Source: Pseudomonadota bacterium
GTDB lineage: Bacteria > Myxococcota_A > UBA9042 > CAIXZC01
DNA: 64,000 nt
Direction: 5' to 3'
NCBI GenBank assembly: GCA_043815665.1
Contig: JBDRIT010000025.1
Span: forward strand, 67,487-131,486
Part shown: positions 33,354 through 60,265 of the stretch, one piece after another
Position numbering within the stretch: the first letter of the stretch is position 1
Layout: every line of letters begins with the position of its first letter
Program-made: the position numbers and the translations under genes
Notes under the pieces: model-generated
The model's database searches: none
What the model was told of the DNA's origin: nothing
What the model saw: only the letters and a program-made list of their open reading frames with translations

Positions 33354-33382
33354 ATTCTATAACTTCTGAATAATCATATCAA
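33354..33382 (-). promoter_or_regulatory. near-consensus sigma70-type promoter (TTGATA-N17-TAGAAT on minus strand) for the lipoprotein/Omp85/TamB operon
   Basis: The reverse complement of 33354-33382 reads TTGATA tgattattcagaagtta TAGAAT, about 20 nt before the GGAGGTG RBS and the ATG at 33333. It sits in an AT-rich divergent intergenic region. Confidence 0.45.
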
Positions 33383-41798: not shown

Positions 41799-41902
41799 TT
41801 CCGCTCCGTCGCCCGAGGCCCTCTCCGGAGAACGTGACCGCCGACCCGTTTATTCTGGACATGCCCCCGGGTTTTTACAAACATGCAGACGGGAGGTGAC
41901 CC

Positions 41903-43666
41903 ATGAGCTGGAGGGACTGGAAGTACGCGCTGGTCCAGTTCAACCCGGTGCCCGGGGCCCTGGAGCACAACGCGTCCCGGATCATCGCGCTGGGTCGCGC
42001 CGCCCGGGACCTGGGCGCGGACGTCGTGATCTTCCCCGAGACCGCGCTCCCCGGATACTGCATCGCCGACCTCCACAAGGACATGAGCTTCGTCCGCCGC
42101 AACCGGCGGATCCTCGAGGAGACCCTCGCCCCCGCGCTCGCCGACGTGGTCACGGTGCTGGGCTACATCGACGTTGACGACGTACGTCGCATGGCAGATG
42201 GGCTCCCGGCCCGCAGGAACCGCTACGCGGTGTGCCAGGGCGGTCGCGTCCTGGCGACGGGCACGAAGACCCTCCTCGTCGACGACGGGGTCCTGGAGGA
42301 CTCACGCCACTACCTGCCGGGGGACCCGGACGAGGTCCGCCCCGTGGAGGTCGTCTGCGGCGGTCGTCGGCTCCGCATCGGGGTGCTGATCTGCCAGGAT
42401 CTCTGGGACGACGAGGCCCAGGTCAAGCCGGCGCTGCTCCAGCGGGACCGGGGCGCCGAGATCCTGGTCGCGATCAACTCCTCGCCCTTCCACGTGGGCC
42501 GCCTCGCGGACCGCCGGGCGGTGGCCGCGGCCCGGGTCCGGGAGACCGGCCTGCCCCTGCTCTACGCCAACACCGTGGGTGCGCAGGACAACGGCAAGAA
42601 CATCATCCTCTTCGACGGCGGCGGCTTCGCGCTTGGCCCCGACGGCGGACTCCTCGCCCAGGGACCGCTCTTCGACGAGACCCCCGTCCTCTTCGACCCC
42701 GCCGCTCCGGCCACGTCCATCCCTCCCCTGGAGCCCGTGGACGAGCTGCACAGGGCCCTGGTCATGGGGATCGCGGACTTCTACGTGAAGACCGGGGTGT
42801 TCCGGGGCGCGGTCATCGGCCTCTCGGGGGGCATCGACTCCACCGTGGACGCGGCCCTCCTGGTGGAGGCCCTCGGCGCGGATCGGGTCCTGGGCGTCAA
42901 CATGCCCAGCCGCTTCAACAGCGACATCACCCGGGGCATCGCCGCGGACCTGGCCGGCAACCTGGGCATCGAGTACCTGGTCCACCCGATCCAGGAGATC
43001 GTGGATGCGAAGGTCGCCGCCTGGCGTCGGGCCACGGGGAGCGACCTCGCCTCCCTCACCCTGGAGAACATCCAGGCCCGGGAGCGGGGCAACATCCTGA
43101 TGACCGCCTCCCAGGAGCGGCGCTTCATGGTCGTGGGGAACGGGAACAAGACCGAGTTCCAGCGGGGCTACGCGACCTTGTACGGCGACATCGTCGGCGC
43201 GCTCATGCCCCTGGGGGACGTGCACAAGCTCGATGTCTACCGGCTGGGCCGACATCTGAACGGACTCCTGGATGGTGCGATCCCCGAAGCGGTCTTCGGG
43301 ATCAAGGCCTCCGCGGAGCTCTCCGACGCACAGGACGTGTCCCGGGGCGGCGGGGATCCCTTCGACTACCACGTCGAGGCCCCCCTGGGGGTGGAGCTGG
43401 TCGAGCGGGGCCGCAGCCCCGAGGAGCTGGCCGCCCTGTTCCAGGCCAGGGAGCTGGATCCCTTGCTCTGGGTCCGGGACGGGACCGGGCGCCTGGTCTA
43501 CGACAAGCTCACACCCGAGGCCTTCCGGGACGCGGCGCTGGCCACCCTCCGGGCGATCCGCTCCAGCGTGTTCAAGCGGGTCCAGGCGCCGCCGATCCTG
43601 GTGGTCTCCCCCCGGGCCTTCGGTTTCGACTTCCGGGAAGCCCTCCTGGTCCGGGACCGCTGTTGA
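41903..43666 (+). CDS. nadE: glutamine-dependent NAD+ synthetase (CN-hydrolase + NadE domains)
   Basis: N-terminal nitrilase-like domain (VIFPETALPGY...CQDLW). C-terminal SGGIDS PP-loop. Confidence 0.92.
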   Translation: MSWRDWKYALVQFNPVPGALEHNASRIIALGRAARDLGADVVIFPETALPGYCIADLHKDMSFVRRNRRILEETLAPALADVVTVLGYIDVDDVRRMADGLPARRNRYAVCQGGRVLATGTKTLLVDDGVLEDSRHYLPGDPDEVRPVEVVCGGRRLRIGVLICQDLWDDEAQVKPALLQRDRGAEILVAINSSPFHVGRLADRRAVAAARVRETGLPLLYANTVGAQDNGKNIILFDGGGFALGPDGGLLAQGPLFDETPVLFDPAAPATSIPPLEPVDELHRALVMGIADFYVKTGVFRGAVIGLSGGIDSTVDAALLVEALGADRVLGVNMPSRFNSDITRGIAADLAGNLGIEYLVHPIQEIVDAKVAAWRRATGSDLASLTLENIQARERGNILMTASQERRFMVVGNGNKTEFQRGYATLYGDIVGALMPLGDVHKLDVYRLGRHLNGLLDGAIPEAVFGIKASAELSDAQDVSRGGGDPFDYHVEAPLGVELVERGRSPEELAALFQARELDPLLWVRDGTGRLVYDKLTPEAFRDAALATLRAIRSSVFKRVQAPPILVVSPRAFGFDFREALLVRDRC

Positions 43667-43691
43667 ACGCCTGCGGGTCTCCTCGTATAAT
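43663..43691 (+). promoter_or_regulatory. near-consensus sigma70-type promoter TTGAAC-N17-TATAAT
   Basis: TTGAAC at 43663-43668 (overlapping the nadE stop), a 17-nt spacer, then TATAAT at 43686-43691. About 40 nt upstream of the Cys-rich gene start. Confidence 0.5.
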
Positions 43692-43732
43692 GCCTTCGCT
43701 CCGATCCGGGAGACATCTGCACGGGGGTCTGC

Positions 43733-46700
43733 ATGAGCATGAAGGGACGTTGGACGATGCGCTTCGCGATGACCGCGATCCTGGTTGCGGCCCTGGCCGC
43801 GCCGGCCGCCGCTGCGACCTGGAGCTACGGCTTCGACAATGACCTCCAGGAGTTCTCGGGGACCGACGGCTGGGTCTCCCAGTACTGCTCGGACCCGTGG
43901 ACCACCGCGCTCAACGGCGGCGTCACGCCGAAGACCGACGACGGCTGCAACGTGGAGCAGTGCACCCCGAGCAACAACTGCGGGTACAACTGGGGCTACT
44001 GGCTCCAGTGGGGCCAGTGCATCCAATCCGACCCCCTGGACAACCACATCACCTACGGCCCGAAGACCTGGCAGGACTACGTCTTCCGGGCGGACATGCG
44101 CAACGACGACGACGACACCTTCGGGTTCGTGTTCCGCTACCAGAACTCGGGGCAGTTCTACCTCTTCATGATCTCCCGGAACATCGCCCCCCTGCCGAAC
44201 CTCGGCTGCGGTCACGAGATCTATGGCGCGGCCCTGTACCGGATCGAGGGGTCCGACGGGACCGTGCTGGGCACGGCGGAGAACGTCGTCTACCAGCCCG
44301 GCCAGGTGCACAAGGTGCAGATCACGGTGCAGGGGAACCACCTCACCGTCCAGTTCGACACGAACCACGACGGCGCGTTCGGCGCCGACGAGACCATCTT
44401 CGACCTGGACGACCCCGATCCGCTGCCCTCGGGCCAGGTGGGCTTCTTCGCCTGGGAGAACGGCGCAACAGGGAACGACGCCGACCCCTGCTCCGCGGGG
44501 GGCTGCTGGTTCGACAACGCAGAGGTGGACGTCCTGGCGGTCGACGATCCCTGCGACGGAATCTCCTGGGAGGGCTACTGCGAAGGGAACACCGCGGTCT
44601 ACTGCGACGACGGCGTGGTCAAGGAGGTCAACTGCCAGGGCTGCTGCGCCTGGATCCCCCAGCAGGAGTACTACTGGTGCACCAACGGACCCTCCTGCCA
44701 GCAGGACTGCATCCCCGAGTGCGGGCAGGGGGACTTCGGCTGCTCGGACCAGGGGACCCACGCCTGGGTCTGCGGACAGGACTCCACGGGGTGCTGGATC
44801 CGGTCCTGGACCGCGTGTACCCAGTCCGGCGTCTGCGATGCGGCGACGGGGCAATGCGCGGGCAACCCCTGCGAGCCCCAGTGCGTCGGCGAGGACGGCC
44901 AGCTGATGGCGTGTGGACCCGATGGCTGCGGCGGCGCTTGCGGCACCTGCCCCGGGGACTCCTACTGCGGCGCCGGGTTCACCTGCGTCGAGGACTGCAT
45001 GCCGAACTGCGGCGGAAAGATCTGCGGCTCTGACGGCTGTGGCGGCGCCTGCGGCGCCTGCCCCCCGGGCTTCGAGTGCAACCAGCAGGGCTTGTGCCAG
45101 GCCCAGTGCCTGCCCAACTGTGTGGGCAAGCAATGCGGCAACGACGGCTGCGGCGGGTCCTGCGGGATCTGTCCGCCGGGCCTCACCTGCGTGGACTACC
45201 AGTGCACCGTCTGCACCCCGGACTGCACCGACAAGCAATGCGGCGGCGATGGCTGCGGCGGCCTCTGCGGGACCTGCCCCGAGGACTTCACCTGCGAGGA
45301 CAACCTGTGCGTCGAGGGCCCCTGCGAGCCCCAGTGCGTCAGCGCCGACGGCCTGATGAAGCAATGCGGCCCGAACGGGTGCGCCGGCTTCTGCGGCTTC
45401 TGCCCCCCGGGCCTGGAGTGCAACGACGCTGGGATGTGCATCTCCACCTGCACGCCGGACTGCGAGGGAAAGGACTGCGGCCCCGACGGGTGCGACGGTT
45501 TCTGCGGACAATGCGACGACGACGCGCTCTGCTGGGACGGCCAGTGCATCGTCCAGGACAGCTGCGTGGGCTTCTGCGGCGAGCAGGGACCGAGCTGCTA
45601 CTGTGACCCGCAGTGCCAGGACTACGGCGACTGCTGCGACGACGCCTGCGAGGCCTGCCCTGACCTCCCCTTCTGCGGTCAGTGCCAGCCCCTCTGCGCC
45701 GATCCCCTCGGCAACCCCTTCGAGTGCGGCGACGACGGCTGCAGCGGCGCCTGCGGTCTCTGCGGCGACGGTGACGTCTGCCAGGGACACGTCTGCGTCC
45801 CCGACGGCCCCGTCATCCCCGAGACCTGCAGCGAGATCCAGGGCTGCATCGAGCAGTGCGGGGACGACGAGGCGTGCGCAGCCGCATGCTTCGAGGTGGC
45901 CCCGCCGGACGCCCAGCAGCTCTACTTCGAGCTGGTGCAATGCTATCAGGGCGCAGAGGGACTCTGCGACTGCGTCGGAGAGGACGACAACTGCTGGCTC
46001 GTCTGCCTCTTGACGGAGTGCGAGGCGGTCATCGACGCGTGCTATGCGTTCCAGGGGGACTGCGGCGACATCGTCGGCTGCACCCAGGAGTGCACGGGCG
46101 GCACCTGCATGGCGGACTGTCTGAACTCCGAAGGCGACGTCGCGGCCAAGCTCCTCTTCATGGAGGTCGCCGCCTGCGTCGAGAACGCCTGCGCCGATCC
46201 CTTCCCCGGCTGCGTCGAGGACGCGCTCCAGGGACCCTGCGCCGACCTCTTCGAGGAGTGCACCGGCGGCGCCTGCGAGCCCGACTGCCAGGGCCCCGAC
46301 GGACCGATGCAATGCGGCGGCGACGGCTGCGGCGGGAGCTGCGGCGAGTGCGGGGCCGGCGCCTCCTGCGTCGGCGGGGAATGCGTCGACGACGGAGACC
46401 CCTGTGGGCTCGCCTGCGCAGGCAAGGAGTGCGGCTCCACCAACGGCTGCCTCTGCGGCACCTGCGACGCGGGCCAGGCCTGCGACGACGGCGAGTGCAT
46501 CCCCGTAGGAGAGTGCACCCCGGGCGACTACAAGCAGTGCGTGGGCGACATCCTGTACTGGTTCGACTCCTGTGACCAGCAGGGGCCGCCCACGGAGATC
46601 TGCAAGGGGACCTGCGTCGAGGACAAATGCGTGGACGAGGAGCCTGGCACCGGGGACGTGATCGATCCCGAGGACGCAGGCCCGGACCCGGACATCACCG

Positions 46701-46861
46701 ACCCCACGATCTTCCCGAAGTCCGAGACCTCCTCGGGCTGCACCCGGGCCCCAGCCGGTTCGACCGCTACGGTCTGGCTGCTCCTCCTGGCCCTTGCGGG
46801 CCTCATCGGCGTGCGCCGTGTCCGTCGGGGCGACCTGAAGGACGCCCGCACCGGAGGATGA
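43733..46861 (+). CDS. large secreted Cys-rich repeat protein (LamG-like N-domain, ~9 CGxDGCGGxCGxC repeats, MYXO-CTERM-like tail)
   Basis: Signal peptide. Repeat units such as CMPNCGGKICGSDGCGGACGACPPGFEC. C-terminus GCTRAPAGSTATVWLLLLALAGLIGVRRVRR. Confidence 0.8.
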   Translation: MSMKGRWTMRFAMTAILVAALAAPAAAATWSYGFDNDLQEFSGTDGWVSQYCSDPWTTALNGGVTPKTDDGCNVEQCTPSNNCGYNWGYWLQWGQCIQSDPLDNHITYGPKTWQDYVFRADMRNDDDDTFGFVFRYQNSGQFYLFMISRNIAPLPNLGCGHEIYGAALYRIEGSDGTVLGTAENVVYQPGQVHKVQITVQGNHLTVQFDTNHDGAFGADETIFDLDDPDPLPSGQVGFFAWENGATGNDADPCSAGGCWFDNAEVDVLAVDDPCDGISWEGYCEGNTAVYCDDGVVKEVNCQGCCAWIPQQEYYWCTNGPSCQQDCIPECGQGDFGCSDQGTHAWVCGQDSTGCWIRSWTACTQSGVCDAATGQCAGNPCEPQCVGEDGQLMACGPDGCGGACGTCPGDSYCGAGFTCVEDCMPNCGGKICGSDGCGGACGACPPGFECNQQGLCQAQCLPNCVGKQCGNDGCGGSCGICPPGLTCVDYQCTVCTPDCTDKQCGGDGCGGLCGTCPEDFTCEDNLCVEGPCEPQCVSADGLMKQCGPNGCAGFCGFCPPGLECNDAGMCISTCTPDCEGKDCGPDGCDGFCGQCDDDALCWDGQCIVQDSCVGFCGEQGPSCYCDPQCQDYGDCCDDACEACPDLPFCGQCQPLCADPLGNPFECGDDGCSGACGLCGDGDVCQGHVCVPDGPVIPETCSEIQGCIEQCGDDEACAAACFEVAPPDAQQLYFELVQCYQGAEGLCDCVGEDDNCWLVCLLTECEAVIDACYAFQGDCGDIVGCTQECTGGTCMADCLNSEGDVAAKLLFMEVAACVENACADPFPGCVEDALQGPCADLFEECTGGACEPDCQGPDGPMQCGGDGCGGSCGECGAGASCVGGECVDDGDPCGLACAGKECGSTNGCLCGTCDAGQACDDGECIPVGECTPGDYKQCVGDILYWFDSCDQQGPPTEICKGTCVEDKCVDEEPGTGDVIDPEDAGPDPDITDPTIFPKSETSSGCTRAPAGSTATVWLLLLALAGLIGVRRVRRGDLKDARTGG

Positions 46862-48174
46862 ACCCCGTGCACACCACCGGCCGGGTCGTGGCCCTTTCCC
46901 TCCTCGCGTTCCTGTGCGGCGGGTGCGGCGGGGATGCTCCGAGGGCGGGGACCGGCTGGATCCTCCCCGGAGAGGTCGGGGCATGGCCGGACGCCCTCTC
47001 GGGGGATGACACAGCAGCGGACATCGCCATCGGCGAAGGCGGCGATTCGAACTGCGATCCCCCCGACGTCTGCGCCCACGAAGTCACCTCGGACACGGAC
47101 GCCGGGCTCCTCTGCACCCCCGGGGAGAGGTCCTGCGACGGGGCCGACGTCATCGAGTGCGGAGGAGACGGGCTCGCCTGGGAATCCCTCGGGGACTGCG
47201 ACGACGGGGACTTCTGCACCGAGGACCAGTGCCTGGGCGGGGAGTGCCTCAACGAGGCCCTCGGGTCCTGCTGCGAGCCGCCCTGCCCCCTCGGACAGCT
47301 CTGCTTCAACGGGGAGTGTGTCTGCGCATCCCAGTGCTTCGGCAAGGAGTGCGGCGACGACGGCTGCGGCGGGACCTGCGGCGAGTGCCCTCTGCAGCAC
47401 CACTGTTCCCCCGCGGGCCAGTGCACCTGTGATCCGGATTGCGCGGGGCCAGACGGGACGGAGAAGGAGTGCGGCGACGACGGCTGCGGCGACGCCTGCG
47501 GATTCTGCCTCGGGCCCCAGGATCTCTGCCTCGAGGGGCTCTGCGTCTGCCAGCCCGCCTGCGAGGCGATGGAGTGCGGCCCGGACGGCTGCGGCGCCGA
47601 CTGCGGTGTCTGCCCCGCCCAGCACCAATGCTCCCCGGAGGGCCAGTGCGTCTGTGTCCCGGACTGTGCTGGCAAGACCTGCGGCGGCGACGGGTGCGGC
47701 GGCCTCTGCGGCGAATGCGACGCCCCGCTGTATCTCTGTGACGCCGCGGGGCAGTGCGTCCAGGACCCGGCCTTCTCACCGGTGCTCGGTGCGTGCACAC
47801 CCCACCTCCTCGGGCCGACGGTCTATTACATCTGCTGGCAGGCCAAGAAGTGGGACGACGCAAAGGACTACTGTGCGGACAACGGCACCTGGCTCGCCAC
47901 GATCACGTCCCAGGCCGAGCAGGACTTCCTCGCCGGTCTCGCTGGCGCGGCGGGGCAGACCCTCTGGATCGGTCTGAGCCAGGGCTTCTGGGAGTGGGAC
48001 TCCTTCGAGTGGGTCACCGGCGAGGGAAAGCCCGTGGAGTTCTGGGGCGAGGGTGAGCCCAACGATGGCGGGTTCTTCGAGAGCGAGGACTGCGGCGAGA
48101 TGCACCCCGCCGGGTTCTGGAATGACGAAAAATGCGGCGACGAGCAGTGGTTCTTCTGTGAGCACTCCTCCTGA
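46858..48174 (+). CDS. Cys-rich repeat lipoprotein with C-terminal C-type lectin-like domain
   Basis: ATGA overlap with the upstream gene. LSLLAFLCGGCGG. Four CGDDGCGGTCGEC-type repeats. C-terminal WIGL...WEW...GEPND...WNDEKC...FFCE is a CTLD signature. Confidence 0.8.
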   Translation: MNPVHTTGRVVALSLLAFLCGGCGGDAPRAGTGWILPGEVGAWPDALSGDDTAADIAIGEGGDSNCDPPDVCAHEVTSDTDAGLLCTPGERSCDGADVIECGGDGLAWESLGDCDDGDFCTEDQCLGGECLNEALGSCCEPPCPLGQLCFNGECVCASQCFGKECGDDGCGGTCGECPLQHHCSPAGQCTCDPDCAGPDGTEKECGDDGCGDACGFCLGPQDLCLEGLCVCQPACEAMECGPDGCGADCGVCPAQHQCSPEGQCVCVPDCAGKTCGGDGCGGLCGECDAPLYLCDAAGQCVQDPAFSPVLGACTPHLLGPTVYYICWQAKKWDDAKDYCADNGTWLATITSQAEQDFLAGLAGAAGQTLWIGLSQGFWEWDSFEWVTGEGKPVEFWGEGEPNDGGFFESEDCGEMHPAGFWNDEKCGDEQWFFCEHSS

Positions 48175-48223
48175 CCCAGGGGCGCCGACGGCGCGCCGGA
48201 CGGTTCCCCGGAGCCGCGGCTGG

Positions 48224-48706
48224 ATGGTGCCTGCCGGAGGCATCGGCCTCGCCGGCCTTCTCGCCCTCACCGAGGCCGCGTTCGGCGTCGGCTATCCGAC
48301 CCCATACAGCCCACCGGAGGCACCGCTCATGGCGGCTGCGTGGGGCCTGCCCGCAGGGATGCTCCTCACGGAGGCCTGGTTCGATCTGCGCACCTACGGC
48401 CTCGGCCGGAAGGGCCTGTTCCTCCTCTTCGGGATGGTCCTCGCGGCCACAGGATGCCTCCTCCCGTGGCCCATCGCGGTGCCGCCGAGCATCCACGGCG
48501 CGGTGGTCGGCCTCGCGGTGCTCCACGAGCTCATCGACTACCGGCCGACGAGCTCCCACCGGCTCGTGCTCGTGATGTTCTCCCTCCTGCTGGCCGCCTG
48601 GCACGAGCTGTTCCGCTTCCCCGCGCCCGCGTCCCTCCTGGTGGGGGTCGGGGTGGGGATCGCTGCCTGGTGTGTCGCGAGGATCAGCGCCGGCGCAACG
48701 CGGTGA
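48224..48706 (+). CDS. hypothetical polytopic membrane protein
   Basis: ~160 aa with 4-5 hydrophobic helices. Weak similarity to A24 prepilin peptidases (FDLRT), but no GxGDVK motif. Confidence 0.45.
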   Translation: MVPAGGIGLAGLLALTEAAFGVGYPTPYSPPEAPLMAAAWGLPAGMLLTEAWFDLRTYGLGRKGLFLLFGMVLAATGCLLPWPIAVPPSIHGAVVGLAVLHELIDYRPTSSHRLVLVMFSLLLAAWHELFRFPAPASLLVGVGVGIAAWCVARISAGATR

Positions 48707-49955
48707 CCGTCTCGATGTGCGGCGTGTGGGGGAAGAGATCCACCGGGATGACCCGGTCCACCCGCCAGCCTGCGTCCACGAGGATCCCGAGGTCTCTCCC
48801 CAGGGTGTAGGGGTCACAGGACACGTAGACGATCCCTTGGGTCGGGTGATCGCGAAGGGCCTCGCAGACGGCACGGGCGCCGGCCCGGGGCGGGTCCAAC
48901 AGGACCAGGTCCGGAGCAGGGCCATCCTGACCGAGCGCCCGCACGGCGTCCCCGTGGTGAACGCGGAGGGTCGCTCCCCGCGGGGCGGCGCCCTCGAGGG
49001 CACGCACCGCAGGCCCCGACGACTCCCAGGCCTCGACAGCCAGCCCTGCTCCGAGCAGGGGGAGGGTCATGTTTCCGCTCCCGGAGTACAGCTCCAGGAT
49101 CCTGCCGGATGGGGGCACCATCGCCTCCACCGCGGCGATGACACGCTCCACGAGGAGCCCGTTGGCAGCCCAGTTTGCCTGGAGGAACGCGCCCGCGGCC
49201 ACGGGGATTCGCCAGGTCCTGCCTGTGACCTCGAGGATCTTGGACCCGGTGGCCTCGCTGAAGCGGTGGCTGCCCAGCCCCGGAGCTCCGAGGATCCCCC
49301 CCCGGATCGCCTTGGATTGAGCCAGCGCAACCTGGAGACCATCGAGATCCCGGGGCACGTTCGAGAGGTTGATCGCGACCAGGACGCCCTCGTCGGCGAG
49401 GCTCAGCTCCACGGTCCCGGCGGCGCCCCGCCCGGCCAGGGCGGCGCGCAGGGCCGCGGCCGCGTCGAGGAGCGGCCGCATCAGCACGGGACACTCCGGC
49501 GCATTCACGACCTCGTGGGTCCCGGGACGGAAGAAGCCCAGGCGGACGCGACCGCCGTCGGAGGCAATGTGGAGCCGTGCCCGGTGGCGCCAGGCCCGCT
49601 CTTCCGGGCTGGGCACCACCTCCTCCGGCGGCATCTCCACGCCGGCCCGGCCCAGCGCGTCGGAGAGGATCTGGCGGCATGCGTCCCGCTGCGCAGCGAC
49701 CGCGACGTGCTGCCAATCGCACCCCCCGCACGTCCCGGCGAGGGGACAGAAGGGCTCGACCCGACACACAGACGGTCGGATGACCCGGGTCACGACCGCC
49801 AGGTCGAACCGTGCACGCTGCTGGAACAGGCGGACCTCCACGACCTCGTCCGGCGCGGCGCCGCGCACGAAGACCACCTTCCCGTCGGTTGCCCGCGCAA
49901 CGGCGCCGCCCAGGAACGCGAGGGCGCCGGTCTCCAGGGTGACGACGTCGGTCAA
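48684..49955 (-). CDS. rlmD: 23S rRNA (uracil-5-)-methyltransferase RlmD/RumA family
   Basis: TRAM-like N-terminus. Cys cluster CRVEPFCPLAGTCGGCDWQH. SAM-MTase motifs LELYSGSGN and DPPRAG. Confidence 0.88.
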   Translation of the reverse strand: MTDVVTLETGALAFLGGAVARATDGKVVFVRGAAPDEVVEVRLFQQRARFDLAVVTRVIRPSVCRVEPFCPLAGTCGGCDWQHVAVAAQRDACRQILSDALGRAGVEMPPEEVVPSPEERAWRHRARLHIASDGGRVRLGFFRPGTHEVVNAPECPVLMRPLLDAAAALRAALAGRGAAGTVELSLADEGVLVAINLSNVPRDLDGLQVALAQSKAIRGGILGAPGLGSHRFSEATGSKILEVTGRTWRIPVAAGAFLQANWAANGLLVERVIAAVEAMVPPSGRILELYSGSGNMTLPLLGAGLAVEAWESSGPAVRALEGAAPRGATLRVHHGDAVRALGQDGPAPDLVLLDPPRAGARAVCEALRDHPTQGIVYVSCDPYTLGRDLGILVDAGWRVDRVIPVDLFPHTPHIETVTALRRR

Positions 49956-51028
49956 GGCAGGTCGAGCCCGAGGAGGAGGGGCACGTGGTCGGAGAGGTCG
50001 GGCATGGGCTCGAGGAGCTTCGGGGTCGAGGTGTTGATGGAGCCACCCGTGAGGAGGTAGTCGAACCGCCGGATCGGCGCCGCCCCTTCCGCCCCCAGCC
50101 AGGTGGCGTGGGCCGCCGGATCCTGGAAGAAGTCCCGGTCCTGGACGACCTCTTTCAGGCTCCCCTTGTGGCGCAGGAGATCCATGGTGTACTCCATCTC
50201 GCCCATCTGCTTCGCCTCTTCGGGGTTCTTGGGGCGCTGCGCGGGCTCCGTCCAGGTCGTTGCGTAGACCACCGCATCATGGAAATCCCGGGTCTCGATC
50301 CACTCGGCGGCAGCGCTCGCCTGGCGCTCCCGAGCCCTGGAATCGACCTGGTCGAGGACCACCTGCAGGATCTTGAGCTCCTTCTCGTCGCCTACCCGGA
50401 TCCGGGCCTCATGGACCACCGCAATGGGACCGAATGCATCGTCCATCCAGCCCCTGTCCCTGGAGCCGGGGAGGGGGTAGAGCACGCTCTTCGCAATCGG
50501 GTATCGGCTGAGCACGGCCACGCCGGAGTCGATCCCCCCCGAGAAGTTGAGCACAAGGGGCCGCGGGTAGAGCGGGTACGGGCTCATCTGCGTCCGCGCC
50601 CGGGCCACGTAGGCCCAGCCGAGGCGCCGCGCGAGGATCTCGGCCTGGTCGCGCTCCCCCGTGGCCCGGGACCCGAAGTCCACCTCCTGGAGCACCAGCG
50701 CATCCGCCGCCTGGTCCCGGACCAGGGCCACCACCTGATCCAGACGGTGGGAGATCGCCTGGTCCTCATGAGCCACCTCGGCGGGCGGGTTCCGCTCGTA
50801 CCAGATCAAGTCCCGACCCAAGCCGTGGTTGAGGTTCAGGAACAGGATCTTGAGCCCCTTGCCGGTGCTCTGGGGTGGGTCCTCACCCGCCCAGGAACCC
50901 TGCTCCACGTCCAGATTCGTCTCCCCGATCGGGTGGTACCCGGACTTGTAGATCCCGAGGACCAACAGCACCAGGACGATGAATGCCACGATCAAAATGG
51001 TCACGATGACGGAAAAAAAGCGTCTCAT
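49952..51028 (-). CDS. endonuclease/exonuclease/phosphatase (EEP) family protein, N-terminal TM
   Basis: LKILFLNLNHG...LVLQEVD...SDHVPLL are EEP-fold motifs. Confidence 0.8.
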   Translation of the reverse strand: MRRFFSVIVTILIVAFIVLVLLVLGIYKSGYHPIGETNLDVEQGSWAGEDPPQSTGKGLKILFLNLNHGLGRDLIWYERNPPAEVAHEDQAISHRLDQVVALVRDQAADALVLQEVDFGSRATGERDQAEILARRLGWAYVARARTQMSPYPLYPRPLVLNFSGGIDSGVAVLSRYPIAKSVLYPLPGSRDRGWMDDAFGPIAVVHEARIRVGDEKELKILQVVLDQVDSRARERQASAAAEWIETRDFHDAVVYATTWTEPAQRPKNPEEAKQMGEMEYTMDLLRHKGSLKEVVQDRDFFQDPAAHATWLGAEGAAPIRRFDYLLTGGSINTSTPKLLEPMPDLSDHVPLLLGLDLP

Positions 51029-51037
51029 CGGTCTCCT

Positions 51038-51898
51038 CTAGAGGTGGATCCTCAGCGGTCTGGTTGAACGTCGCGGCTCGATCACATCACCGTAACCGAG
51101 ATCGTGGCGGATGTGCCCGCCATCCACCCAGACCGCTGCCTCCGGGGTGAGGTTGGTGATACGCAGGCCGCCGGTGAACGTCTCCCGCAGGAGACGGAGG
51201 GTGTCCTGTCGGCGAAATACCTCCCGCACTGCGAACTGGAGCATGCACGCGCCCAGGGGCATACGCGTTCCCCCGGCGTTCAGGATCCCCGCGGTGGATC
51301 CGGCCGGGGTCGAGACCCAGATTCCTGAGCTCTTCTGCAGCTCCCGGCGCCCGTCCAGCTCGATGGAGTACACCGTCGACGTCGCCGGGTTCACCGCGGT
51401 GTACAGGAAGTCGTTGAGGGCTGGAGGCGGCAGCTCCACGCCTCCCACAGAAACGGAACACCTGGTGAGGTTTCGTGGCGCAACCTCACCGGCCAGGATC
51501 GGCCGCAGACGGTCCGGAAAATCGTGCCGGGTCGCCGCGCAGAACCAGCCTACGCTGAAGGTCGGCCTCGAGTTGATCCCGACGATCGGGGTGTCCACGA
51601 GCCAGTGGGACGCATCCAGCAGGGTCCCGTCACCGCCCACGGTGATCACGAGGTCGTACTCACCGTCCTGGTCCACCCCCGGAGGAGCGCCCAGCCGGTA
51701 GGAAATCCCACCGCCAGTAAGGAAGGCCTCGACGGCCTCCGTGACCTTGAGGTTCTCATCGTGATCCCGGAGCAGACGGGCGGCGTGCTCGCCGCTCTGC
51801 GCCATCAACTCAAGGAACCGCGGCACCTTCTTCTCCAGCCCGAAGTGCTGGTAAAAGCTCCGCTTGGTCACGAGCAGGACCTGCGCGGTCCGTCCCAC
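51038..51898 (-). CDS. nadK: NAD kinase
   Basis: DLVITVGGDGTLL GGDG motif and the NE/D short motif. 286 aa, typical for PpnK. Confidence 0.9.
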   Translation of the reverse strand: MGRTAQVLLVTKRSFYQHFGLEKKVPRFLELMAQSGEHAARLLRDHDENLKVTEAVEAFLTGGGISYRLGAPPGVDQDGEYDLVITVGGDGTLLDASHWLVDTPIVGINSRPTFSVGWFCAATRHDFPDRLRPILAGEVAPRNLTRCSVSVGGVELPPPALNDFLYTAVNPATSTVYSIELDGRRELQKSSGIWVSTPAGSTAGILNAGGTRMPLGACMLQFAVREVFRRQDTLRLLRETFTGGLRITNLTPEAAVWVDGGHIRHDLGYGDVIEPRRSTRPLRIHL

Positions 51899-52061
51899 GT
51901 TGGTCCCTCCTTTTTCTCTGGTCCTCGGGCAGTCGGGGCGCTATCGGTCAGTATCCAGCAGGGAACGTTTGTCCACAACCCAAAAAAATGTCATGAAAGG
52001 GGTAAAGGCGTCGGGCGATGGTCCGTTTCACGCCGGAACCGTGGGGACCTGGAGGAAGATC

Positions 52062-57309: not shown

Positions 57310-60265
57310 TCAGTCCCCGACGAGGATCACCACGTCGTCCAGGTAGATCGTCCCGAAGGCCTGGTTGGTCAACTCGAACCTGAAGGTATGCGCGCCCGCG
57401 CCCATCGTCGTGACCTCGGCGGACAGGTGGTGCCAGGTGTTGTCGCCGCAGACGGAGCTGGAGGGGACCGCCAGGAGGGTCCCGCCGTCACCCTTGACGT
57501 TCAGGTTCCAGTTCGGCGTGATGCCGGCCGGACAGAGGAGCATGAAGGAGATGTAGGACTCCGTGCCGCTCGGGAGGACCGCGCTGAACTCCATCCAGCC
57601 ATCCAACTTGTACTTGTTGTACCGGAAGGAGTGGGTCGGGGAGTTGGCGAACTCCGGTGTCCCGGAGGCGTCATAGACGAGCCAACCGGGGTTGAACGCC
57701 GGCCACGAGTCGGAGTAGCTGAACTTTGCGGAGGTGACGCCCGCCGCCTCGTCGTCGAAGTTGGCCTGGAACAAAGGCGTCATGGAGAGGCACAGGGTGT
57801 TCCCGTCGCCGGGGTCCGCACAGATCTCCAGCGCGCCGCACTCCGATGAGGTCTGGCAGCAGGTGTCGCAGATGCACTGGTGGAGCTCCTCGTTGCAGGT
57901 CTCGCTGCTCAGACAGGTCCCGCAGGTGCCACCGCAGCCGTCGGCGCCGCACTCGTAGCCGCCGCCATCGCCGTCATCGCAGACGGGCACGCAGCAGCTG
58001 CCGTCGATGCAGGGCAGTCCTCCGCAATCGTCCTCCGTGGTGCAGCACCCGGGGATCGGGTCGAAGAGACAGGCGGACCCGTCCTCGGTGCAGGTGTTCA
58101 GGGTGCACTCATCGCCGTCGTCGCAGGGGAGCGCGGGCGCAGGGGCGTGGGCGCAGCCGTCCACGGGCTCGCAGGAGTCGACGGTGCAGGGCTCCCCGTC
58201 GTCGCAATCGATGGGCGCGCCGCCGGTGCACTCGCCCGCGGCGCAGGTCTCCCCGGTGGTGCAGACGTCCACGTCGTCGCAGGTCCCGCCGTCATTGATC
58301 CCCGTGGGCACGCAGTCCCCGGTCCCCGGATCACAGGCCAGCTCGTAGCAGGTCCCGCCGGGGCCGCACTCCACCGCGGAGTCGGGATCGTTCGCGCAGG
58401 TGTACGGGAAGGAGGCGATGTCGCATTTCGGGGTGCCGTTGCAGAGATCCCCGTCGTCCGTGCAGTCCCCGGCCACGAGACACTCGCAGAGAAACACCCC
58501 GTGCTGGCACGCCCCCGCCGCGTCGCATTGGGCGTTCGGGTAGCAGGCGCCCGCCTCACCTGCGGAGGCGTCGGGGTAGGAGCACGCGGTCCCCAGCAGG
58601 GCAGGGCCGTGGATGCAGGCTCCGGTGAGCGGGTTGCAGGAGTCGACGGTGCAGTCGTTCTGATCGTCGCAGTCCACGGTGAGCACCCCTGCGCAGCCGC
58701 CGGACGCGGTGCAGGCGTCCACGTCGGTGCAGGCGTCCCCGTCGTCACAGGTCTCTCCGGTGAGGGCCACGTTGGCGCAGGCCCCGGTGAGCGCGGTGCA
58801 GGAGTCCGCGGTGCAGGCATTCAAGTCGTTGCAGTCCTTGGCCCCACCTGCACAGCCCCCCACCCCGTCACAGACGTCGACCTCGGTGCAGGGATCGCTG
58901 TCGTCGCAGGGCTCCCCGTCGAGCGCGGCGGCGTCGTGCTCGCATTCGCCGGAGATCGGATCGCAGGAGTCCGCGGTGCAGCCGTTGCCGTCGCCGCACT
59001 CCGTCTTGTCGCCCGGGACGCACGCGACGCCCACACAGATGGCGCTCCCCGTGCACGCGTCCCCGTCATCGCAGCCTCCGCCGGGGTTGGCCGCCTGCTG
59101 CTCACAGACGCCGGTCCCTGCCTGGCACTGCCAGGTGGAGCACTGGGTGTCGGCCGGGCACTCCACGGGCGCGCCCGCATCCACGCACATCCCCTCCTGG
59201 CAGACCCTTCCTCCGTCGCAGAGGTCGACGTCCAGGCAGTCCGCGTCCGCCGCACATTCGCCGACGCACTGAGCGGCCTCGGCGTCGCAGAGGAACTTCC
59301 CCTCGAATCCTTCGATGCACTCCTGGGACTCGGTGAACAGGCCCTCGTTGCACTGGCGGTAGGTGGTCGCGCCGGTGCAGAGGATCCCTTCGTCCACCAC
59401 ATGGGTGGCGAGGTCCTCGATGAGGATCACGCAGCCCCCTGCGGTCTCCGCGCAGACGGCCTGGGCGCCGCCGTAGGTCCAGGCGCAGGTCCCGCTCGCG
59501 CACATGGAGCCCATGAAGCAGGCCTCCCCCGCGGCGCAGATCGCCTCGTCGATCTCGCCGTCGCAGTCGTCGTCCAGGCTGTTGCACAGCTCGTCAACCG
59601 GAGTGCAAGAGGAGCCGCTGCCGCCACCGAGGCCGCCGACGAAGAGGGAGAAGTGGGTCGTGGGGATGCTCACGGTGCCCTTCACGAGGTTCACCGAGGC
59701 CGGGAGCTTCGTCCAGTCCTCCTCGAGGCTCAGGGGCTGCCGGAAGCCGCCCAGCTGATCCCAGGTCACGTCCTCGGGCAGCTCCGTGGGGAGGTCGTCG
59801 AGGAGCGGCAGGATGAGGAGCACCGGCTTGTTGAACACCGCGCCCTCGTTCGCGACGTCGATGCGCCACACCGCGGTGAGCGCCACGACGCCTTCCGGCG
59901 GCGCAGCGCCGCCCTGCACGCCGATGAAGACGTTGATCTCCACCGGAAACGCGTCGGGGGGGACGACCAGCGTCACGCCGCCGTCGAAGAGGAACGTGCC
60001 CCCCGCGGGGCCGATGTCCCACGCCTCCTTCGAGACACCGGTGATGTCCTCCGGCGGGGCGGTGTCTTCCCCGTCCGCATCTCCAGTGACGTCCAGGTCC
60101 TCGTCGGTGGTGTCCGGCGGGGTGGTCAGGTCCTCCTCAGCGGTGTCCGGTGCGATGAGGATCTTCTTCTCGGCCGTGACCACACAGGACTGCGCAGCCA
60201 GGGCCACCAGGGCCAGGAACAGGGCGATCCGGCTCATCCCATGGAACGCTGTTGTCGCTCTCATT
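57310..60265 (-). CDS. large secreted Cys-rich protein with Dictyostelium-type CTDC repeats (CxDGDxCTxDxC), one CGADGCGGTCGTC unit and a C-terminal lectin/LamG-like domain
   Basis: Signal peptide MRATTAFHGMSRIALFLALVALAAQSC with GGAGAG RBS. More than 12 CDDGDACT...C repeats. Confidence 0.8.

What the first reader, a model, noticed from the sequence alone, without database searches (positions are those of the whole stretch)
43733..48174. Two adjacent paralogous secreted proteins built from CGxDGCGGxCGxC ~37-aa Cys repeats: one with a MYXO-CTERM-like tail, one with a C-type lectin domain. A third copy of the repeat lies in the 57310-60265 gene
Each repeat unit has ~8 Cys, e.g. CLPNCVGKQCGNDGCGGSCGICPPGLTCVDYQC. 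About 9 units occur in the first protein and 4 in the second, at 111-nt DNA periodicity. Tandem arrays like this are substrates for recombinational expansion and contraction.

The first protein starts with a LamG/concanavalin-like domain and ends GC...TVWLLLLALAGL...RRVRR, which is MYXO-CTERM-like. The second ends with a textbook CTLD (WIGL...GEPND...WND..C). CTLDs are rare in bacteria. The pair is translationally coupled (ATGA). This suggests a carbohydrate-binding surface module.
Basis: partly seen in the sequence, partly recalled or inferred. Interest (0 to 1): 0.5.

Follow-up and report, generated by a model that had tools for sequence, protein, structure and literature searches.

The report
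Two lectin-tipped, cysteine-stalk surface proteins
An uncultured myxobacterium-like genome carries a conserved gene pair for two envelope-anchored proteins, each predicted to hold a sugar-binding head on a disulfide-rich stalk built from a very common but uncatalogued 37-residue repeat; this is a new variant of a known surface-receptor design, not a shifting repeat array.

Summary
p1 (43733-46861, 1042 aa) and p2 (46858-48174, 438 aa) overlap by ATGA. They carry 9 and 4 copies of an 8-Cys, 35-42-aa unit with the core CGxDGCGGxCGxC. A further copy lies in the gene at 57310-60265.

p1 is: signal peptide, concanavalin-like head (fold match to the thrombospondin C-terminal domain and CBM66), Cys-rich modules, then a tripartite Cys/TM/Arg tail. 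The tail scores 18.2-18.9 bits against MYXO-CTERM (cut-off 20).

p2 is a lipoprotein with a canonical C-type lectin domain (Pfam 63.9 bits) with WIGL, EPN, E and WND intact. Two orthologues have QPD instead of EPN.

The repeat matches no Pfam or NCBIfam model and no solved fold. Even so, its profile finds 6,955 protein clusters.

The array is not dynamic. DNA identity between units is 60-80% and TRF finds no array. Seven lineages, including the window, keep 9 units; eight keep 4 in p2. One relative shows a unit-7/unit-8 fusion that deletes about 190 aa.

Best reading: a TraA-like pair of lectins on stalks that binds glycans at the cell surface. This is a new variant of a known kind, of moderate interest.

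The parts
43663..43691 (+). Sigma-70-like promoter candidate TTGAAC-17 nt-TATAAT upstream of p1
   Evidence: It matches 10 of 12 consensus positions. It is the only such site in 5.5 kb, where shuffles give 0.3. Both hexamers are invariant in five lineages while the spacer varies.
43733..46861 (+). p1: 1042-aa secreted Cys-rich protein (whole CDS with stop)
   Evidence: ORF. Orthologues at 70-98% identity sit in the same synteny.
43733..43816 (+). p1 signal peptide (aa 1-28, AAA|ATW)
   Evidence: Direct reading of MSMKGRWTMRFAMTAILVAALAAPAAAA. This is inference; no predictor was run.
43817..44542 (+). p1 concanavalin-like beta-sandwich head (aa 29-270), with an EF-hand-like loop D209-x-N-x-D-G-x5-E220
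   Evidence: The AF2 model is confident over aa 105-270. Foldseek against PDB: thrombospondin C-terminal domain, CBM66, GH43 C-terminal domain, galectin and LNS domains at E about 1e-6, probability 1.0. Sequence hits are weak: 3keto-disac_hyd 19.9-23.7 bits, TSP_C, Laminin_G_2. Invariant residues are listed.
44543..44878 (+). p1 conserved Cys-rich beta domain (aa 271-382) between head and repeats
   Evidence: There are 14 invariant Cys in the family alignment. pLDDT is 80-93 in the model. No Pfam hit.
44879..45580 (+). p1 units 1-6: six tandem 8-Cys repeats (aa 383-616)
45581..45691 (+). p1 Somatomedin-B-like Cys knot (aa 617-653)
   Evidence: PF01033 scores 17.4 bits, below the gathering score of 23.1. 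Present in all aligned orthologues at 76-100% identity.
45692..45808 (+). p1 unit 7 (aa 654-692)
   Evidence: Its 5' half is fused to the 3' half of unit 8 in relative L085.
45809..46282 (+). p1 helical Cys-rich module, two copies (aa 693-850). No family match.
   Evidence: No Pfam or NCBIfam hit. The same module ends proteins P0015, P0020, P0021, P0036, P0039 and P0040. It is absent from L085.
46283..46507 (+). p1 units 8 and 9 (aa 851-925). Unit 9 is degenerate.
46508..46732 (+). p1 small C-terminal Cys domain and acidic/Pro linker (aa 926-1000)
   Evidence: Alignment of orthologues.
46733..46858 (+). p1 tripartite sorting tail of MYXO-CTERM type: SGC signature, TM helix VWLLLLALAGLIGV, RRVRR, plus a 10-aa extension
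   Evidence: TIGR03901 scores 18.2-18.9 bits against a cut-off of 20. In the family, 16 of 32 tails at the same position hit TIGR03901, best E 3e-7.
46858..48174 (+). p2: 438-aa lipoprotein with repeats and a C-type lectin domain (whole CDS with stop)
46858..46926 (+). p2 signal peptide and lipobox (Cys23)
   Evidence: Cys23 aligns with clear lipoboxes (LAAC, VGAC, VAGC, IGAC, LGGC, LAGC, VASC) in orthologues. The window's own lipobox (CGG|C) is atypical.
46927..47109 (+). p2 acidic low-complexity linker (aa 24-84)
   Evidence: It is the least conserved part of p2, at 34-57% identity.
47110..47316 (+). p2 N-terminal Cys-rich domain (aa 85-153)
   Evidence: pLDDT 62-88.
47317..47760 (+). p2 units 1-4 (aa 154-301)
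   Evidence: The AF2 model has pLDDT about 90 over the units.
47761..48171 (+). p2 long-form C-type lectin domain (aa 302-438) with WIGL, EPN, E and WND
   Evidence: Pfam PF00059 scores 63.9 bits and covers 105 of the 107 profile positions. PDB sequence hits to langerin, SP-D, DC-SIGN and mannose-receptor CRDs at E 1e-16 to 1e-10. Motifs read.
48224..48706 (+). Conserved third gene: 160-aa multi-TM protein of unknown family. Membership in the system is uncertain.
   Evidence: It lies at the same position in L081, L082, L086 and L087. No Pfam or NCBIfam hit.
57310..60265 (-). p3: lipoprotein-like Cys-rich protein with Dicty_CTDC repeats and one CGxDGCGGxCGxC unit
   Evidence: Dicty_CTDC scores 50.1 bits. 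One strict motif at aa 776. The N-terminus reads LALVALAAQSC.
57865..57987 (-). The single repeat unit inside p3 (CVPVCDDGDGGGYECGADGCGGTCGTCLSSETCNEELHQCI)

Best explanation
p1 and p2 are two envelope-anchored lectins that are probably co-transcribed. Each has a membrane anchor, a disulfide-rich stalk and a distal carbohydrate-binding head.

p1 is exported by Sec. [quoted passage not shown] That would leave the C-terminus lipid-anchored and the N-terminal concanavalin-like head about 700 residues away, on a stalk of nine 8-Cys units plus other Cys-rich modules.

p2 is lipidated at Cys23 by the ordinary lipoprotein pathway. It carries an acidic linker, a shorter stalk of four units and a canonical Ca2+-dependent C-type lectin domain at its far end. 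The EPN/E/WND site predicts binding to sugars of the mannose/glucose/GlcNAc/fucose type.

The repeats serve as inert, rigid spacers and do not bind ligand. The pair most likely mediates adhesion to glycans on prey, particles, matrix polysaccharide or other cells.

Shown: sequence features, domain identities, predicted folds, conserved synteny, fixed repeat number.
Inferred: localisation, processing, sugar binding, biological role.
For: Anchors:
- The p1 tail is tripartite with an invariant Cys. TIGR03901 scores 18.2-18.9 bits against a cut-off of 20.
- Tails of family members aligned at the same position include clear MYXO-CTERM hits: 16 of 32, best E 3e-7. The Cys is the only invariant column.
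- Relatives are almost all MAGs labelled Myxococcales or Myxococcota.
- The lipobox Cys of p2 is conserved in all orthologues.

Heads:
- CTLD: Pfam 63.9 bits. PDB hits are to Man-type CRDs. WIGL, EPN, E at +6, WND and six Cys are intact.
- Two orthologues carry QPD with WND kept. The EPN/QPD rule is described in PMC7276794.
- The p1 head has a concanavalin-like fold at E about 1e-6, with a conserved D-x-N-x-D-G-x5-E loop.
- The head is the best conserved part of p1: 83-90% identity versus 49-86% in the other mature regions, in the three orthologues at 75-79% overall identity.

Stalk role:
- The units are modelled with pLDDT about 90 in a model whose pTM is only 0.48.
- Conserved positions are Cys, Gly and Asp only.
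- The same unit is fused to many unrelated domains: PAD/agmatine deiminase, M23, FGE-sulfatase, PPC, TIG, VCBS.
- In proteins anchored by a tail the repeats abut the C-terminal anchor. In lipobox proteins they start near the N-terminus.
- Family members with the same head and tail have 0-14 units.

Operon:
- The junction is an ATGA overlap or a gap of no more than 39 nt.
- The order NadE-p1-p2 is seen in L001, L081, L082-L084 and L085, and p1-p2 in every related locus. Where the contig extends further, the TM protein follows.
- The promoter-like hexamers are invariant.

Precedent: TraA is built as a lectin-like head, Cys-rich repeats proposed to act as a rigid stalk, and MYXO-CTERM. Its cleavage by MrtX has been shown, and its surface delivery is attributed to the T2SS (PMC3325183; PMC11980579).
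Against: - There is no experimental datum for this protein or for any close homologue.
- The tail is below the curated MYXO-CTERM cut-off. It has a 12-residue gap between Cys and TM and a 10-residue extension after the Arg cluster.
- JDVT-CTERM scores about the same (17.4-18.7 bits), although the DP motif typical of that signal is absent.
- No myxosortase/CPBP or T2SS gene was found among the window ORFs scanned. The rest of the genome is not available.
- The window's own p2 lipobox is atypical, with C at position -3.
- The head also resembles 3-keto-disaccharide hydrolase (DUF1080) and GH43 accessory domains, so an enzymatic role is possible.
- aa 17-103 of p1 are modelled poorly.
- The CTLD neighbour is confined to the closest clade. 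More distant p1-like genes have other neighbours.
- Whether p2 faces the periplasm or the outside is unknown.
Confidence: 0.6

Rival explanations
1. Contingency or variable-array locus. The tandem repeats exist to be expanded and contracted by recombination, giving variation in stalk length or in antigen within populations.
For: One relative (L085/P0003, 841 aa) has a chimeric unit-7/unit-8 repeat and lacks the roughly 190 aa between those units. The switch lies in the conserved GACGGNTGCGGCGG core. Unit number in the wider head+tail family ranges from 0 to 14, and from 1 to 27 among the repeat-bearing homologues retrieved.
Against: TRF finds no array. DNA identity between units is 60-80%. The longest exact match between two units is 28 nt and the median is 10 nt. 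p1 has 9 units and p2 has 4 at identical positions in seven and eight lineages respectively, counting the window, including a strain 99-100% identical in DNA. Apart from start-site differences, indels are 1-6 aa and never a whole unit.
Confidence: 0.05
2. The repeats are the active part: arrays of small disulfide-rich inhibitor or binder domains, for example multi-headed protease inhibitors of the pacifastin type or chitin-binding peritrophin-like domains. The lectin domains would only target them.
Confidence: 0.08
3. p1 is a surface-displayed or secreted enzyme, not a lectin. Its DUF1080/3-keto-disaccharide-hydrolase-like head would act on a sugar substrate, and p2 would deliver or hold that substrate.
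For: The best Pfam hit of the head is 3keto-disac_hyd at 19.9-23.7 bits. Fold matches include accessory domains of glycoside hydrolases.
Against: The hit is below the gathering score of 26.8. The best structural matches are non-enzymatic: the thrombospondin C-terminal lectin-like domain, CBM66, galectins and LNS domains. No catalytic residues could be assigned.
Confidence: 0.12
4. Cys-rich metal-binding or redox-buffering proteins of the envelope, in the manner of metallothionein or MopE.
For: Cys makes up 12-13% of both proteins. Neighbouring or related proteins carry Cu-binding_MopE motifs.
Against: Each unit has an even number of Cys (8). The units fold into compact beta-hairpin modules with high confidence. 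The proteins are exported to an oxidising compartment. No MopE, metallothionein or other metal-site model hits p1 or p2.
Confidence: 0.05

Closest known systems
TraA (MXAN_6895) of Myxococcus xanthus and its paralogue MXAN_4924, with the traAB operon
   Same: Both have a type I signal peptide, an N-terminal lectin-like head, a region of about nine Cys-rich repeats (proposed in TraA to be a rigid stalk) and a C-terminal sorting tail with an invariant Cys, a TM helix and an Arg cluster. Both are encoded next to a second envelope protein and belong to Myxococcota (PMC3325183; PMC11980579).
   Different: The head here is concanavalin-like, not PA14, and no PA14 hit was found. The repeat matches no NCBIfam Cys-repeat model. 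The partner is a CTLD lipoprotein, not an OmpA-domain TraB. The head is the most conserved part of p1, unlike the polymorphic TraA receptor (titles and abstracts of PMC3820747 and PMC6372800). That argues for a fixed ligand and against kin discrimination.
Animal C-type lectin receptors with a neck or stalk (langerin, DC-SIGN, collectins such as SP-D and MBP)
   Same: All have a canonical long-form CTLD with WIGL, EPN/QPD, E and WND, displayed at the far end of a spacer from a membrane anchor. PDB sequence hits are at E 1e-16 to 1e-10. An EPN-to-QPD change occurs among orthologues.
   Different: This is a bacterial lipoprotein. The spacer is a disulfide-rich repeat stalk, not a coiled-coil or collagen neck, so there is no evidence for trimerisation. 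Sugar binding has not been tested.
Thrombospondin/COMP C-terminal lectin-like domain, and CBM66 and DUF1080-type concanavalin-like modules
   Same: These are the best structural matches to the p1 head. There is also a shared sequence signature, DDD-x-GFVF-YQ-x4-FY.
   Different: Only 12-15% identity, and Pfam scores are below the gathering thresholds. The p1 head has an extra, poorly modelled region of about 75 residues with 4 invariant Cys.
Curated Cys-rich repeats: TIGR02232 (myxo_disulf_rpt), TIGR04201 (TraA-type), Pfam Dicty_CTDC, EGF-like and pacifastin domains
   Same: All are short extracellular disulfide-rich units used in tandem. Dicty_CTDC repeats coexist with one CGxDGCGG unit in p3.
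   Different: No Pfam or NCBIfam model hits the p1 or p2 repeats even at E <= 10. No solved structure matches significantly. The unit has 8 Cys and a distinctive CGxDGCGGxCGxC core.

Membership tests
MYXO-CTERM sorting domain (NCBIfam TIGR03901) | HMM score at or above the curated cut-off (20 bits) | tested here: not met
   18.2 bits on a 57-aa tail and 18.9 bits on a 48-aa tail. There is no hit at E <= 0.1 when the whole protein is scanned. Haft notes that one HMM does not cover all lineages and that curatorial review is needed.
MYXO-CTERM sorting domain (NCBIfam TIGR03901) | Tripartite layout close to the C-terminus: signature with an invariant Cys, a TM helix free of charged residues and Pro, and an Arg-rich cluster | tested here: met
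   The tail reads SSGC, then 12 aa, then VWLLLLALAGLIGV, then RRVRR, then 10 more residues. The Cys is the only invariant column in 32 family tails. The 10-aa extension is atypical.
MYXO-CTERM sorting domain (NCBIfam TIGR03901) | Homologous tails in relatives are recognised as MYXO-CTERM | tested here: met
   16 of 32 tails of proteins with the same head hit TIGR03901 (best E 3e-7), and 4 hit TIGR03382. JGI names P0022 a MYXO-CTERM protein.
MYXO-CTERM sorting domain (NCBIfam TIGR03901) | The genome encodes a myxosortase (MrtX, MrtC or MrtP; core model NF040914) and a T2SS | not testable with these tools
   Only 64 kb is available. No CPBP or T2SS hit was found among the 18 other window ORFs scanned with Pfam.
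MYXO-CTERM sorting domain (NCBIfam TIGR03901) | Host belongs to Myxococcota or Bradymonadales | tested here: inconclusive
   The closest loci are MAGs labelled uncultured Myxococcales, Myxococcota or Deltaproteobacteria. The window itself is unnamed.
JDVT-CTERM (NF033191) | Score at or above 27 bits, and a nearly invariant DP motif before a Leu-rich TM segment | tested here: not met
   17.4-18.7 bits. There is no DP before the TM segment. The motif is described.
C-type lectin domain (Pfam PF00059 Lectin_C) | HMM above the gathering score (22.6 bits) with full-length coverage | tested here: met
   63.9 bits, E 2.7e-17, profile positions 2-106 of 107. There are 145 PDB sequences at E <= 1e-3.
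C-type lectin domain (Pfam PF00059 Lectin_C) | WIGL motif, four core Cys and the extra N-terminal Cys pair of long-form CTLDs | tested here: met
   Read directly: LWIGL, and Cys at ...GAC......YYIC......DYCAD......SEDCGE......DEKCGD......FFCEH. The assignment to disulfides is by analogy.
C-type lectin domain (Pfam PF00059 Lectin_C) | Ca2+ site 2 and sugar site: EPN or QPD, Glu in the loop, WND | tested here: met
   The sequence is GEPNDGGFFESEDC...FWNDEKC. EPN is present in six orthologues and QPD in P0126 and P0128. WND is present in all. The rule is from PMC7276794.
C-type lectin domain (Pfam PF00059 Lectin_C) | Ca2+-dependent carbohydrate binding | not testable with these tools
   Needs a glycan array or ITC.
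Concanavalin-like lectin/glucanase fold (LamG, TSP_C, 3keto-disac_hyd/DUF1080) | A Pfam member model above its gathering score | tested here: not met
   3keto-disac_hyd 19.9-23.7 bits (gathering score 26.8), TSP_C 15.6-18.1 (25.6), Laminin_G_2 14.5 (22.9).
Concanavalin-like lectin/glucanase fold (LamG, TSP_C, 3keto-disac_hyd/DUF1080) | Beta-sandwich fold matching solved members | tested here: met
   281 PDB matches at E <= 1e-3. The top ones are thrombospondin-2 and COMP C-terminal domains and CBM66, at probability 1.0. The model has pLDDT mostly 79-96 over aa 111-240.
Myxobacterial Cys-rich repeats (TIGR02232 myxo_disulf_rpt; TIGR04201 TraA-type) | HMM hit to the repeat region | tested here: not met
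   No NCBIfam family hits a 190-aa block of five units at E <= 10, nor p1 or p2 at E <= 0.1. The presence of these two models in the library copy was not checked separately.
TraA family | PA14 head, TIGR04201 repeats and an adjacent traB (OmpA domain) | tested here: not met
   No PA14 and no TIGR04201 hit. The neighbour is a CTLD lipoprotein. Only the architecture is analogous.
Tandem-repeat contingency locus | Near-identical DNA repeats, and copy number that varies between close relatives | tested here: not met
   The one exception is a unit-7/unit-8 fusion in L085.
Somatomedin B domain (PF01033) | HMM above the gathering score (23.1 bits) | tested here: not met
   17.4 bits over p1 aa 613-646, as mapped from the fragment scanned. 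The 8-Cys pattern is similar.

The most novel reading that the evidence does not exclude
The C-x3-C-x4..10-CGxDGCGGxCGxC-x6-C-x4..5-C unit is a distinct disulfide-rich fold family that has not yet been curated. It has no Pfam or NCBIfam model and no significant PDB counterpart, yet it is present in about 7,000 protein clusters. On this reading it is the standard rigid stalk of surface proteins in uncultured Myxococcota. The conserved p1-p2-TM-protein trio would then be a dedicated two-lectin, Ca2+-dependent apparatus for glycan recognition, a bacterial counterpart of animal C-type lectin receptors. Its sugar specificity would be retuned between lineages by the same EPN/QPD switch that animals use.
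Probability: 0.35. Interest if true: 0.6.

Novelty: new variant of a known kind. Interest (0 to 1): 0.4.

Why it matters
If the reading is right, four things follow.

1. Canonical Ca2+-type C-type lectin domains would work as cell-surface lectins in free-living bacteria. This locus offers natural EPN and QPD alleles for a direct test.
2. The TraA design (head, Cys stalk, MYXO-CTERM) would extend to a second head family and a second stalk family in uncultured aquatic Myxococcota. That supports the idea that this design is a general way for the phylum to display binding domains.
3. A very abundant repeat would be marked out for curation and structure determination. Its profile finds 6,955 clusters at E <= 1e-3 and up to 47 matched stretches in one protein, and automated annotation currently leaves these proteins 'hypothetical'.
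4. A diverged protein repeat array would be shown not to be a dynamic DNA array, which is a useful caution.

Tried and rejected
- TRF and DNA repeat search: no long-period tandem array, only 60-80% identity between units.
- Pfam and NCBIfam on the isolated repeats, the Cys-rich linker domain and the helical module, at E <= 10 or E <= 1: nothing usable.
- Literature search for the motif strings DGCGG, CGDDGCGG and others: only unrelated nucleotide strings.
- Literature search for bacterial C-type lectins in myxobacteria: nothing relevant.
- DGR-type diversification of the CTLD: no template-like repeat of the CTLD DNA anywhere in the window. The only Y-x-DD matches in long ORFs fall inside p1 and p3, so no reverse transcriptase was seen.
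- A weak blastn hit to 32896-33034: it is a MopE-like Cys-rich stretch of another lipoprotein.
- CTLD-only homologue search: one hit from 37 candidates. This reflects a limit of the word index and says nothing about rarity.
- Alignment of 59 representative repeat proteins for a census of partner domains: failed. The precomputed Pfam columns were used instead.
- hhalign of the p3 C-terminal domain against the p1 head: no relation.
- Myxosortase (CPBP) or T2SS genes in the window: none among the ORFs scanned.
- First Pfam query for the small TM gene (protein 1): it was out of frame. The in-frame ORF (protein 2) and later NCBIfam scans also gave nothing.

Full report
**Observation**

The window has 65-73% G+C throughout. 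On the + strand, ORF p1 runs 43733-46861 (1042 aa, 135 Cys). ORF p2 runs 46858-48174 (438 aa, 54 Cys) if the ATG that overlaps the p1 stop is used. The sequence there is GGAGGATGA, so the reported ATGA overlap and a Shine-Dalgarno-like GGAGG are both real.

The strict motif CG.[DN]GC[GSDA][GDA].CG.C occurs 8 times in p1, 4 times in p2 and once in the ORF at 57310-60276 (-). It occurs nowhere else in the six frames. It never appeared in 5000 residue shuffles of either protein. An HMM built from the 12 units finds a ninth, degenerate unit in p1 (aa 891) and four in p2.

Aligned, the unit is C-x3-C-x4..10-C-G-x-D-G-C-x3-C-G-x-C-x6-C-x4..5-C. It has eight Cys, a length of 35-42 aa, and only Cys and Gly invariant (Pro3 and Asp13 nearly so).

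'111-nt periodicity' holds for only three of the five intervals in p1's tandem block. The spacings are 111, 111, 105, 126, 111 nt in p1 and 120, 105, 105 nt in p2. 'Paralogous' is true only of the repeat module: BLASTP aligns nothing else.

**The array at DNA level**

- TRF finds no long-period array. Units are 60-80% identical in DNA.
- The longest exact match between any two units is 28 nt and the median is 10 nt.
- p1 keeps nine units at the same positions in the window and in six related lineages (L081, L002/L004, L001, L082-84, L086, and P0001/P0002, which duplicate two of these loci). These lineages are 70-98% identical to p1. Apart from start-site differences, indels are 1-6 aa.
- p2 keeps four units in all orthologues down to 53% identity. 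The 36% relative P0128 has three.
- L081 is 99-100% identical in DNA over 10.5 kb and has the same units.

One exception is worth noting. P0003/L085 is an 841-aa orthologue close to the L086 lineage. It has a single unit whose 5' half matches unit 7 and whose 3' half matches unit 8. The switch lies in the conserved GACGGNTGCGGCGG core, and the roughly 190 aa that normally separate the two units are missing. That is the signature of one repeat-mediated deletion. Over longer times the number of units changes freely: proteins with the same head and tail have 0-14 units, and the repeat-bearing homologues retrieved have 1-27.

**What p1 is**

- The N-terminus is a typical Sec signal ending AAA|ATW (direct reading).
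- The first roughly 375 aa form a module conserved in many proteins (alignment A1: 14 sequences, 53% mean column identity, 18 invariant Cys).
- Pfam gives only sub-threshold hits, all to concanavalin-clan families: 3keto-disac_hyd 19.9-23.7 bits, TSP_C and Laminin_G_2. A profile search of PDB sequences finds thrombospondin-1 at E 0.002 through a DDD-x-GFVF-YQ-x4-FY signature.
- An AlphaFold2 model has mean pLDDT 71.5. It is confident over the beta-sandwich at aa 105-270 and the following Cys-rich domain, and poor for aa 17-103.
- The model matches thrombospondin-2 and COMP C-terminal domains, CBM66, GH43 accessory domains, galectins, LNS domains and VIP36 at Foldseek E 1e-6 to 1e-4, probability 1.0. 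'LamG/concanavalin-like' is thus supported at fold level.
- The head carries a conserved D209-x-N-x-D-G-x5-E220 loop with EF-hand spacing (direct reading).

After the head come, in order:
1. a Cys-rich beta domain;
2. six tandem units;
3. a Somatomedin-B-like knot (17.4 bits, below the gathering score of 23.1);
4. unit 7;
5. two copies of a helical Cys-rich module with no family match;
6. units 8 and 9;
7. a small Cys domain and an acidic linker;
8. the tail SSGC-TRAPAGSTAT-VWLLLLALAGLIGV-RRVRR-GDLKDARTGG.

Scanned alone, the tail scores 18.2-18.9 bits on MYXO-CTERM (TIGR03901, cut-off 20). JDVT-CTERM scores about the same (17.4-18.7 bits, cut-off 27). The DP motif that defines JDVT-CTERM is absent (description).

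The decisive point is homology. I took 32 tails from proteins that share the p1 head, drawn from GTDB genomes labelled Myxococcales, Myxococcota or Deltaproteobacteria. They align on a single invariant Cys. Sixteen hit TIGR03901 (best E 3e-7) and four hit TIGR03382. Haft's paper states that one HMM cannot cover all lineages and that membership needs review.

I therefore treat the tail as a lineage-specific variant of MYXO-CTERM. I record that the formal cut-off is not met and that a myxosortase could not be looked for, because only 64 kb is available and no CPBP or T2SS hit was found among the ORFs scanned.

**What p2 is**

- Its Cys23 aligns with clear lipoboxes (LAAC, VGAC, VAGC, IGAC, LGGC, LAGC, VASC) in all orthologues. 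The window's own CGG|C is atypical.
- After the lipobox come an acidic linker, a Cys-rich domain, four units and a C-type lectin domain.
- Pfam Lectin_C scores 63.9 bits and covers profile positions 2-106 of 107.
- phmmer finds 145 PDB sequences. Beyond the multi-CTLD receptors of the mannose-receptor family, the single-CRD hits include langerin, SP-D, DC-SIGN and mannose-receptor CRD4, at E 1e-16 to 1e-10.
- WIGL, the six Cys of a long-form CTLD and the whole Ca2+ site 2 (EPN, Glu six residues later, WND) are present.
- Six orthologues have EPN. P0126 and P0128 have QPD with WND kept.
- In animal CTLDs these motifs form the sugar-binding Ca2+ site. EPN is associated with Man-type specificity and QPD with Gal-type (PMC7276794).

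**The repeat as a family**

- No Pfam or NCBIfam model hits it, even at E <= 10.
- An AlphaFold2 model of p2 aa 85-302 (40-sequence alignment) has pLDDT about 90 over the four units and pTM 0.48.
- A profile of the 13 window units finds 6,955 representatives of 50%-identity clusters at E <= 1e-3 (2,928 at 1e-10 and 644 at 1e-30), with up to 47 matched stretches in one protein.
- The named sources are Myxococcota, Deltaproteobacteria and Proteobacteria/Pseudomonadota MAGs.
- The units are fused to PAD/agmatine deiminase, M23 peptidase, FGE-sulfatase, PPC, TIG, VCBS, FG-GAP and other domains.
- About half of the carriers look like lipoproteins, and 15-40% have MYXO-like tails.
- In tail-anchored proteins the last unit ends at a median 0.91 of the protein length. 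In lipobox proteins the first unit starts at a median 0.17. In both cases the repeats sit between the anchor and the functional domain.

p1, p2 and p3 all follow that logic. p3 is lipoprotein-like, has Dicty_CTDC repeats at 50 bits, one unit and a C-terminal domain.

**Context**

- Gene order is conserved in all related loci: NadE - p1 - p2 - a 160-180-aa multi-TM protein with no family match - tRNA U5-methyltransferase-like - Exo_endo_phos - NAD kinase.
- The p1/p2 junction is a 4-nt overlap in the window, L081, L082 and L085. It is a gap of 5-39 nt in L001, L002 and L086.
- TTGAAC-17-TATAAT at 43663-43691 is the only promoter-like site in 5.5 kb. Both hexamers are invariant in five lineages while the spacer varies. 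An own promoter for p1-p2 is therefore likely.
- The CTLD neighbour is specific to this clade. More distant p1-like genes have other neighbours, one of them a 1403-aa TSP_3/MopE/Lectin_C protein.

**Mechanism proposed**

By analogy with TraA, I read p1 as a surface-displayed, C-terminally lipid-anchored lectin. [quoted passage not shown] Its cleavage by the CPBP protease MrtX has been shown, its surface delivery is attributed to the T2SS, and lipidation of the invariant Cys is proposed (PMC11980579). I read p2 as an N-terminally lipid-anchored C-type lectin on a shorter stalk.

The head is the most conserved part of p1: 83-90% identity versus 49-86% in the other mature regions, in the three orthologues at 75-79% overall identity. 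This is unlike the polymorphic TraA receptor (titles and abstracts listed). It points to a fixed glycan ligand such as prey, particle or matrix polysaccharide, and away from kin discrimination.

The steps that are shown are the domain identities, predicted folds, synteny and repeat stability. Localisation, processing, Ca2+ and sugar binding, and the biological role are inferred.

**Rivals**

- Contingency array: largely refuted.
- Repeats as inhibitor or chitin-binding arrays: only non-significant local fold similarity.
- Head as an enzyme: possible.
- Metal binding: unlikely.

**Comparison and novelty**

The locus works like TraA and like animal stalked C-type lectin receptors, but it is not a member of the TraA family. 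It has no PA14 domain, no TIGR04201 repeats and no TraB. The CTLD is a bona fide Lectin_C member.

The tail is a probable MYXO-CTERM variant that fails the curated cut-off. The repeat belongs to no curated family and has no solved counterpart. I rate the locus a new variant of a known kind. The main open value lies in the uncatalogued stalk repeat and in a testable bacterial CTLD with natural EPN and QPD alleles.

Noticed in passing
window 46768-47100 (compared with L081): L081 is 99-100% identical to window 41867-52360 except for a sharply bounded patch of about 330 nt with roughly 105 mismatches (57-82% identity per 60 nt). The patch covers p1's TM helix, Arg cluster and extension, the ATGA junction, p2's signal peptide and lipobox, and p2's acidic linker. 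Neither allele is clearly closer to the other lineages. It could be an allelic exchange or an assembly chimera. No DGR was seen.
   Followed up: partly
L085 330-2855 (P0003), compared with window 45692-46400: This orthologue of p1 is only 841 aa long. A chimeric unit (5' half like unit 7, 3' half like unit 8) replaces units 7 and 8 and the helical module between them. This looks like one deletion by recombination between repeats.
   Followed up: yes
window 45581-45691: p1 contains a Somatomedin-B-like 8-Cys knot (SCVGFCGEQGPSCYCDPQCQDYGDCCDDACEAC). PF01033 scores 17.4 bits against a gathering score of 23.1. It is present in all aligned orthologues.
   Followed up: partly
window 45809-46282: p1 contains two copies of a helical Cys-rich module with no Pfam or NCBIfam match. 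The same module forms the C-terminus of several very long repeat proteins (P0015, P0020, P0021, P0036, P0039, P0040).
   Followed up: partly
window 48224-48706 (+): A 160-aa multi-TM protein lies directly downstream of p2 in the window, L081, L082, L086 and L087. Conserved motifs include DLR-x-YG-x-GRKG and HELIDYRP. No Pfam or NCBIfam hit. It may be a third member of the cluster.
   Followed up: partly
window 44357-44392 (p1 aa 209-220): An EF-hand-like loop, D-x-N-x-D-G-x5-E, lies inside the concanavalin-like head. It is invariant or nearly so in 14 family members and suggests a Ca2+ site.
   Followed up: no
window 57310-60265 (-): p3 starts with a lipoprotein-like signal (LALVALAAQSC). It has Dicty_CTDC-type CDDGxxCT repeats (50 bits), one CGxDGCGG unit and a C-terminal domain of about 160 aa that is unrelated to the p1 head.
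   Followed up: partly
window 52364-52960: A second, milder divergent patch (91-93% identity) between the window and L081. It lies inside the ORF at 51855-53039, which has no Pfam hit.
   Followed up: no
window 9058-9588 (-), 63385-63999 (-), 31261-33378 (-): Further Cys-rich or secreted ORFs. Two have 6-7% Cys and no Pfam hit. The third is a lipoprotein with a MopE-like Cys motif and an SGL/Vgb_lyase beta-propeller.
   Followed up: no
L017, L024, L029, L032, L039, L052: These GTDB MAGs encode proteins that match the p1-type head. Four of the six (L017, L024, L029, L032) end in a Cys/TM/Arg tail like p1's. They are titled 'Klebsiella pneumoniae', 'Enterobacteriaceae' or 'Enterobacterales', which are probably wrong taxon labels.
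   Followed up: no
locus of P0005 (no DNA held): In a distant p1-like locus the convergent neighbour is a 1403-aa protein with TSP_3, Cu-binding_MopE and Lectin_C domains. So Lectin_C domains occur in other architectures in these MAGs.
   Followed up: no
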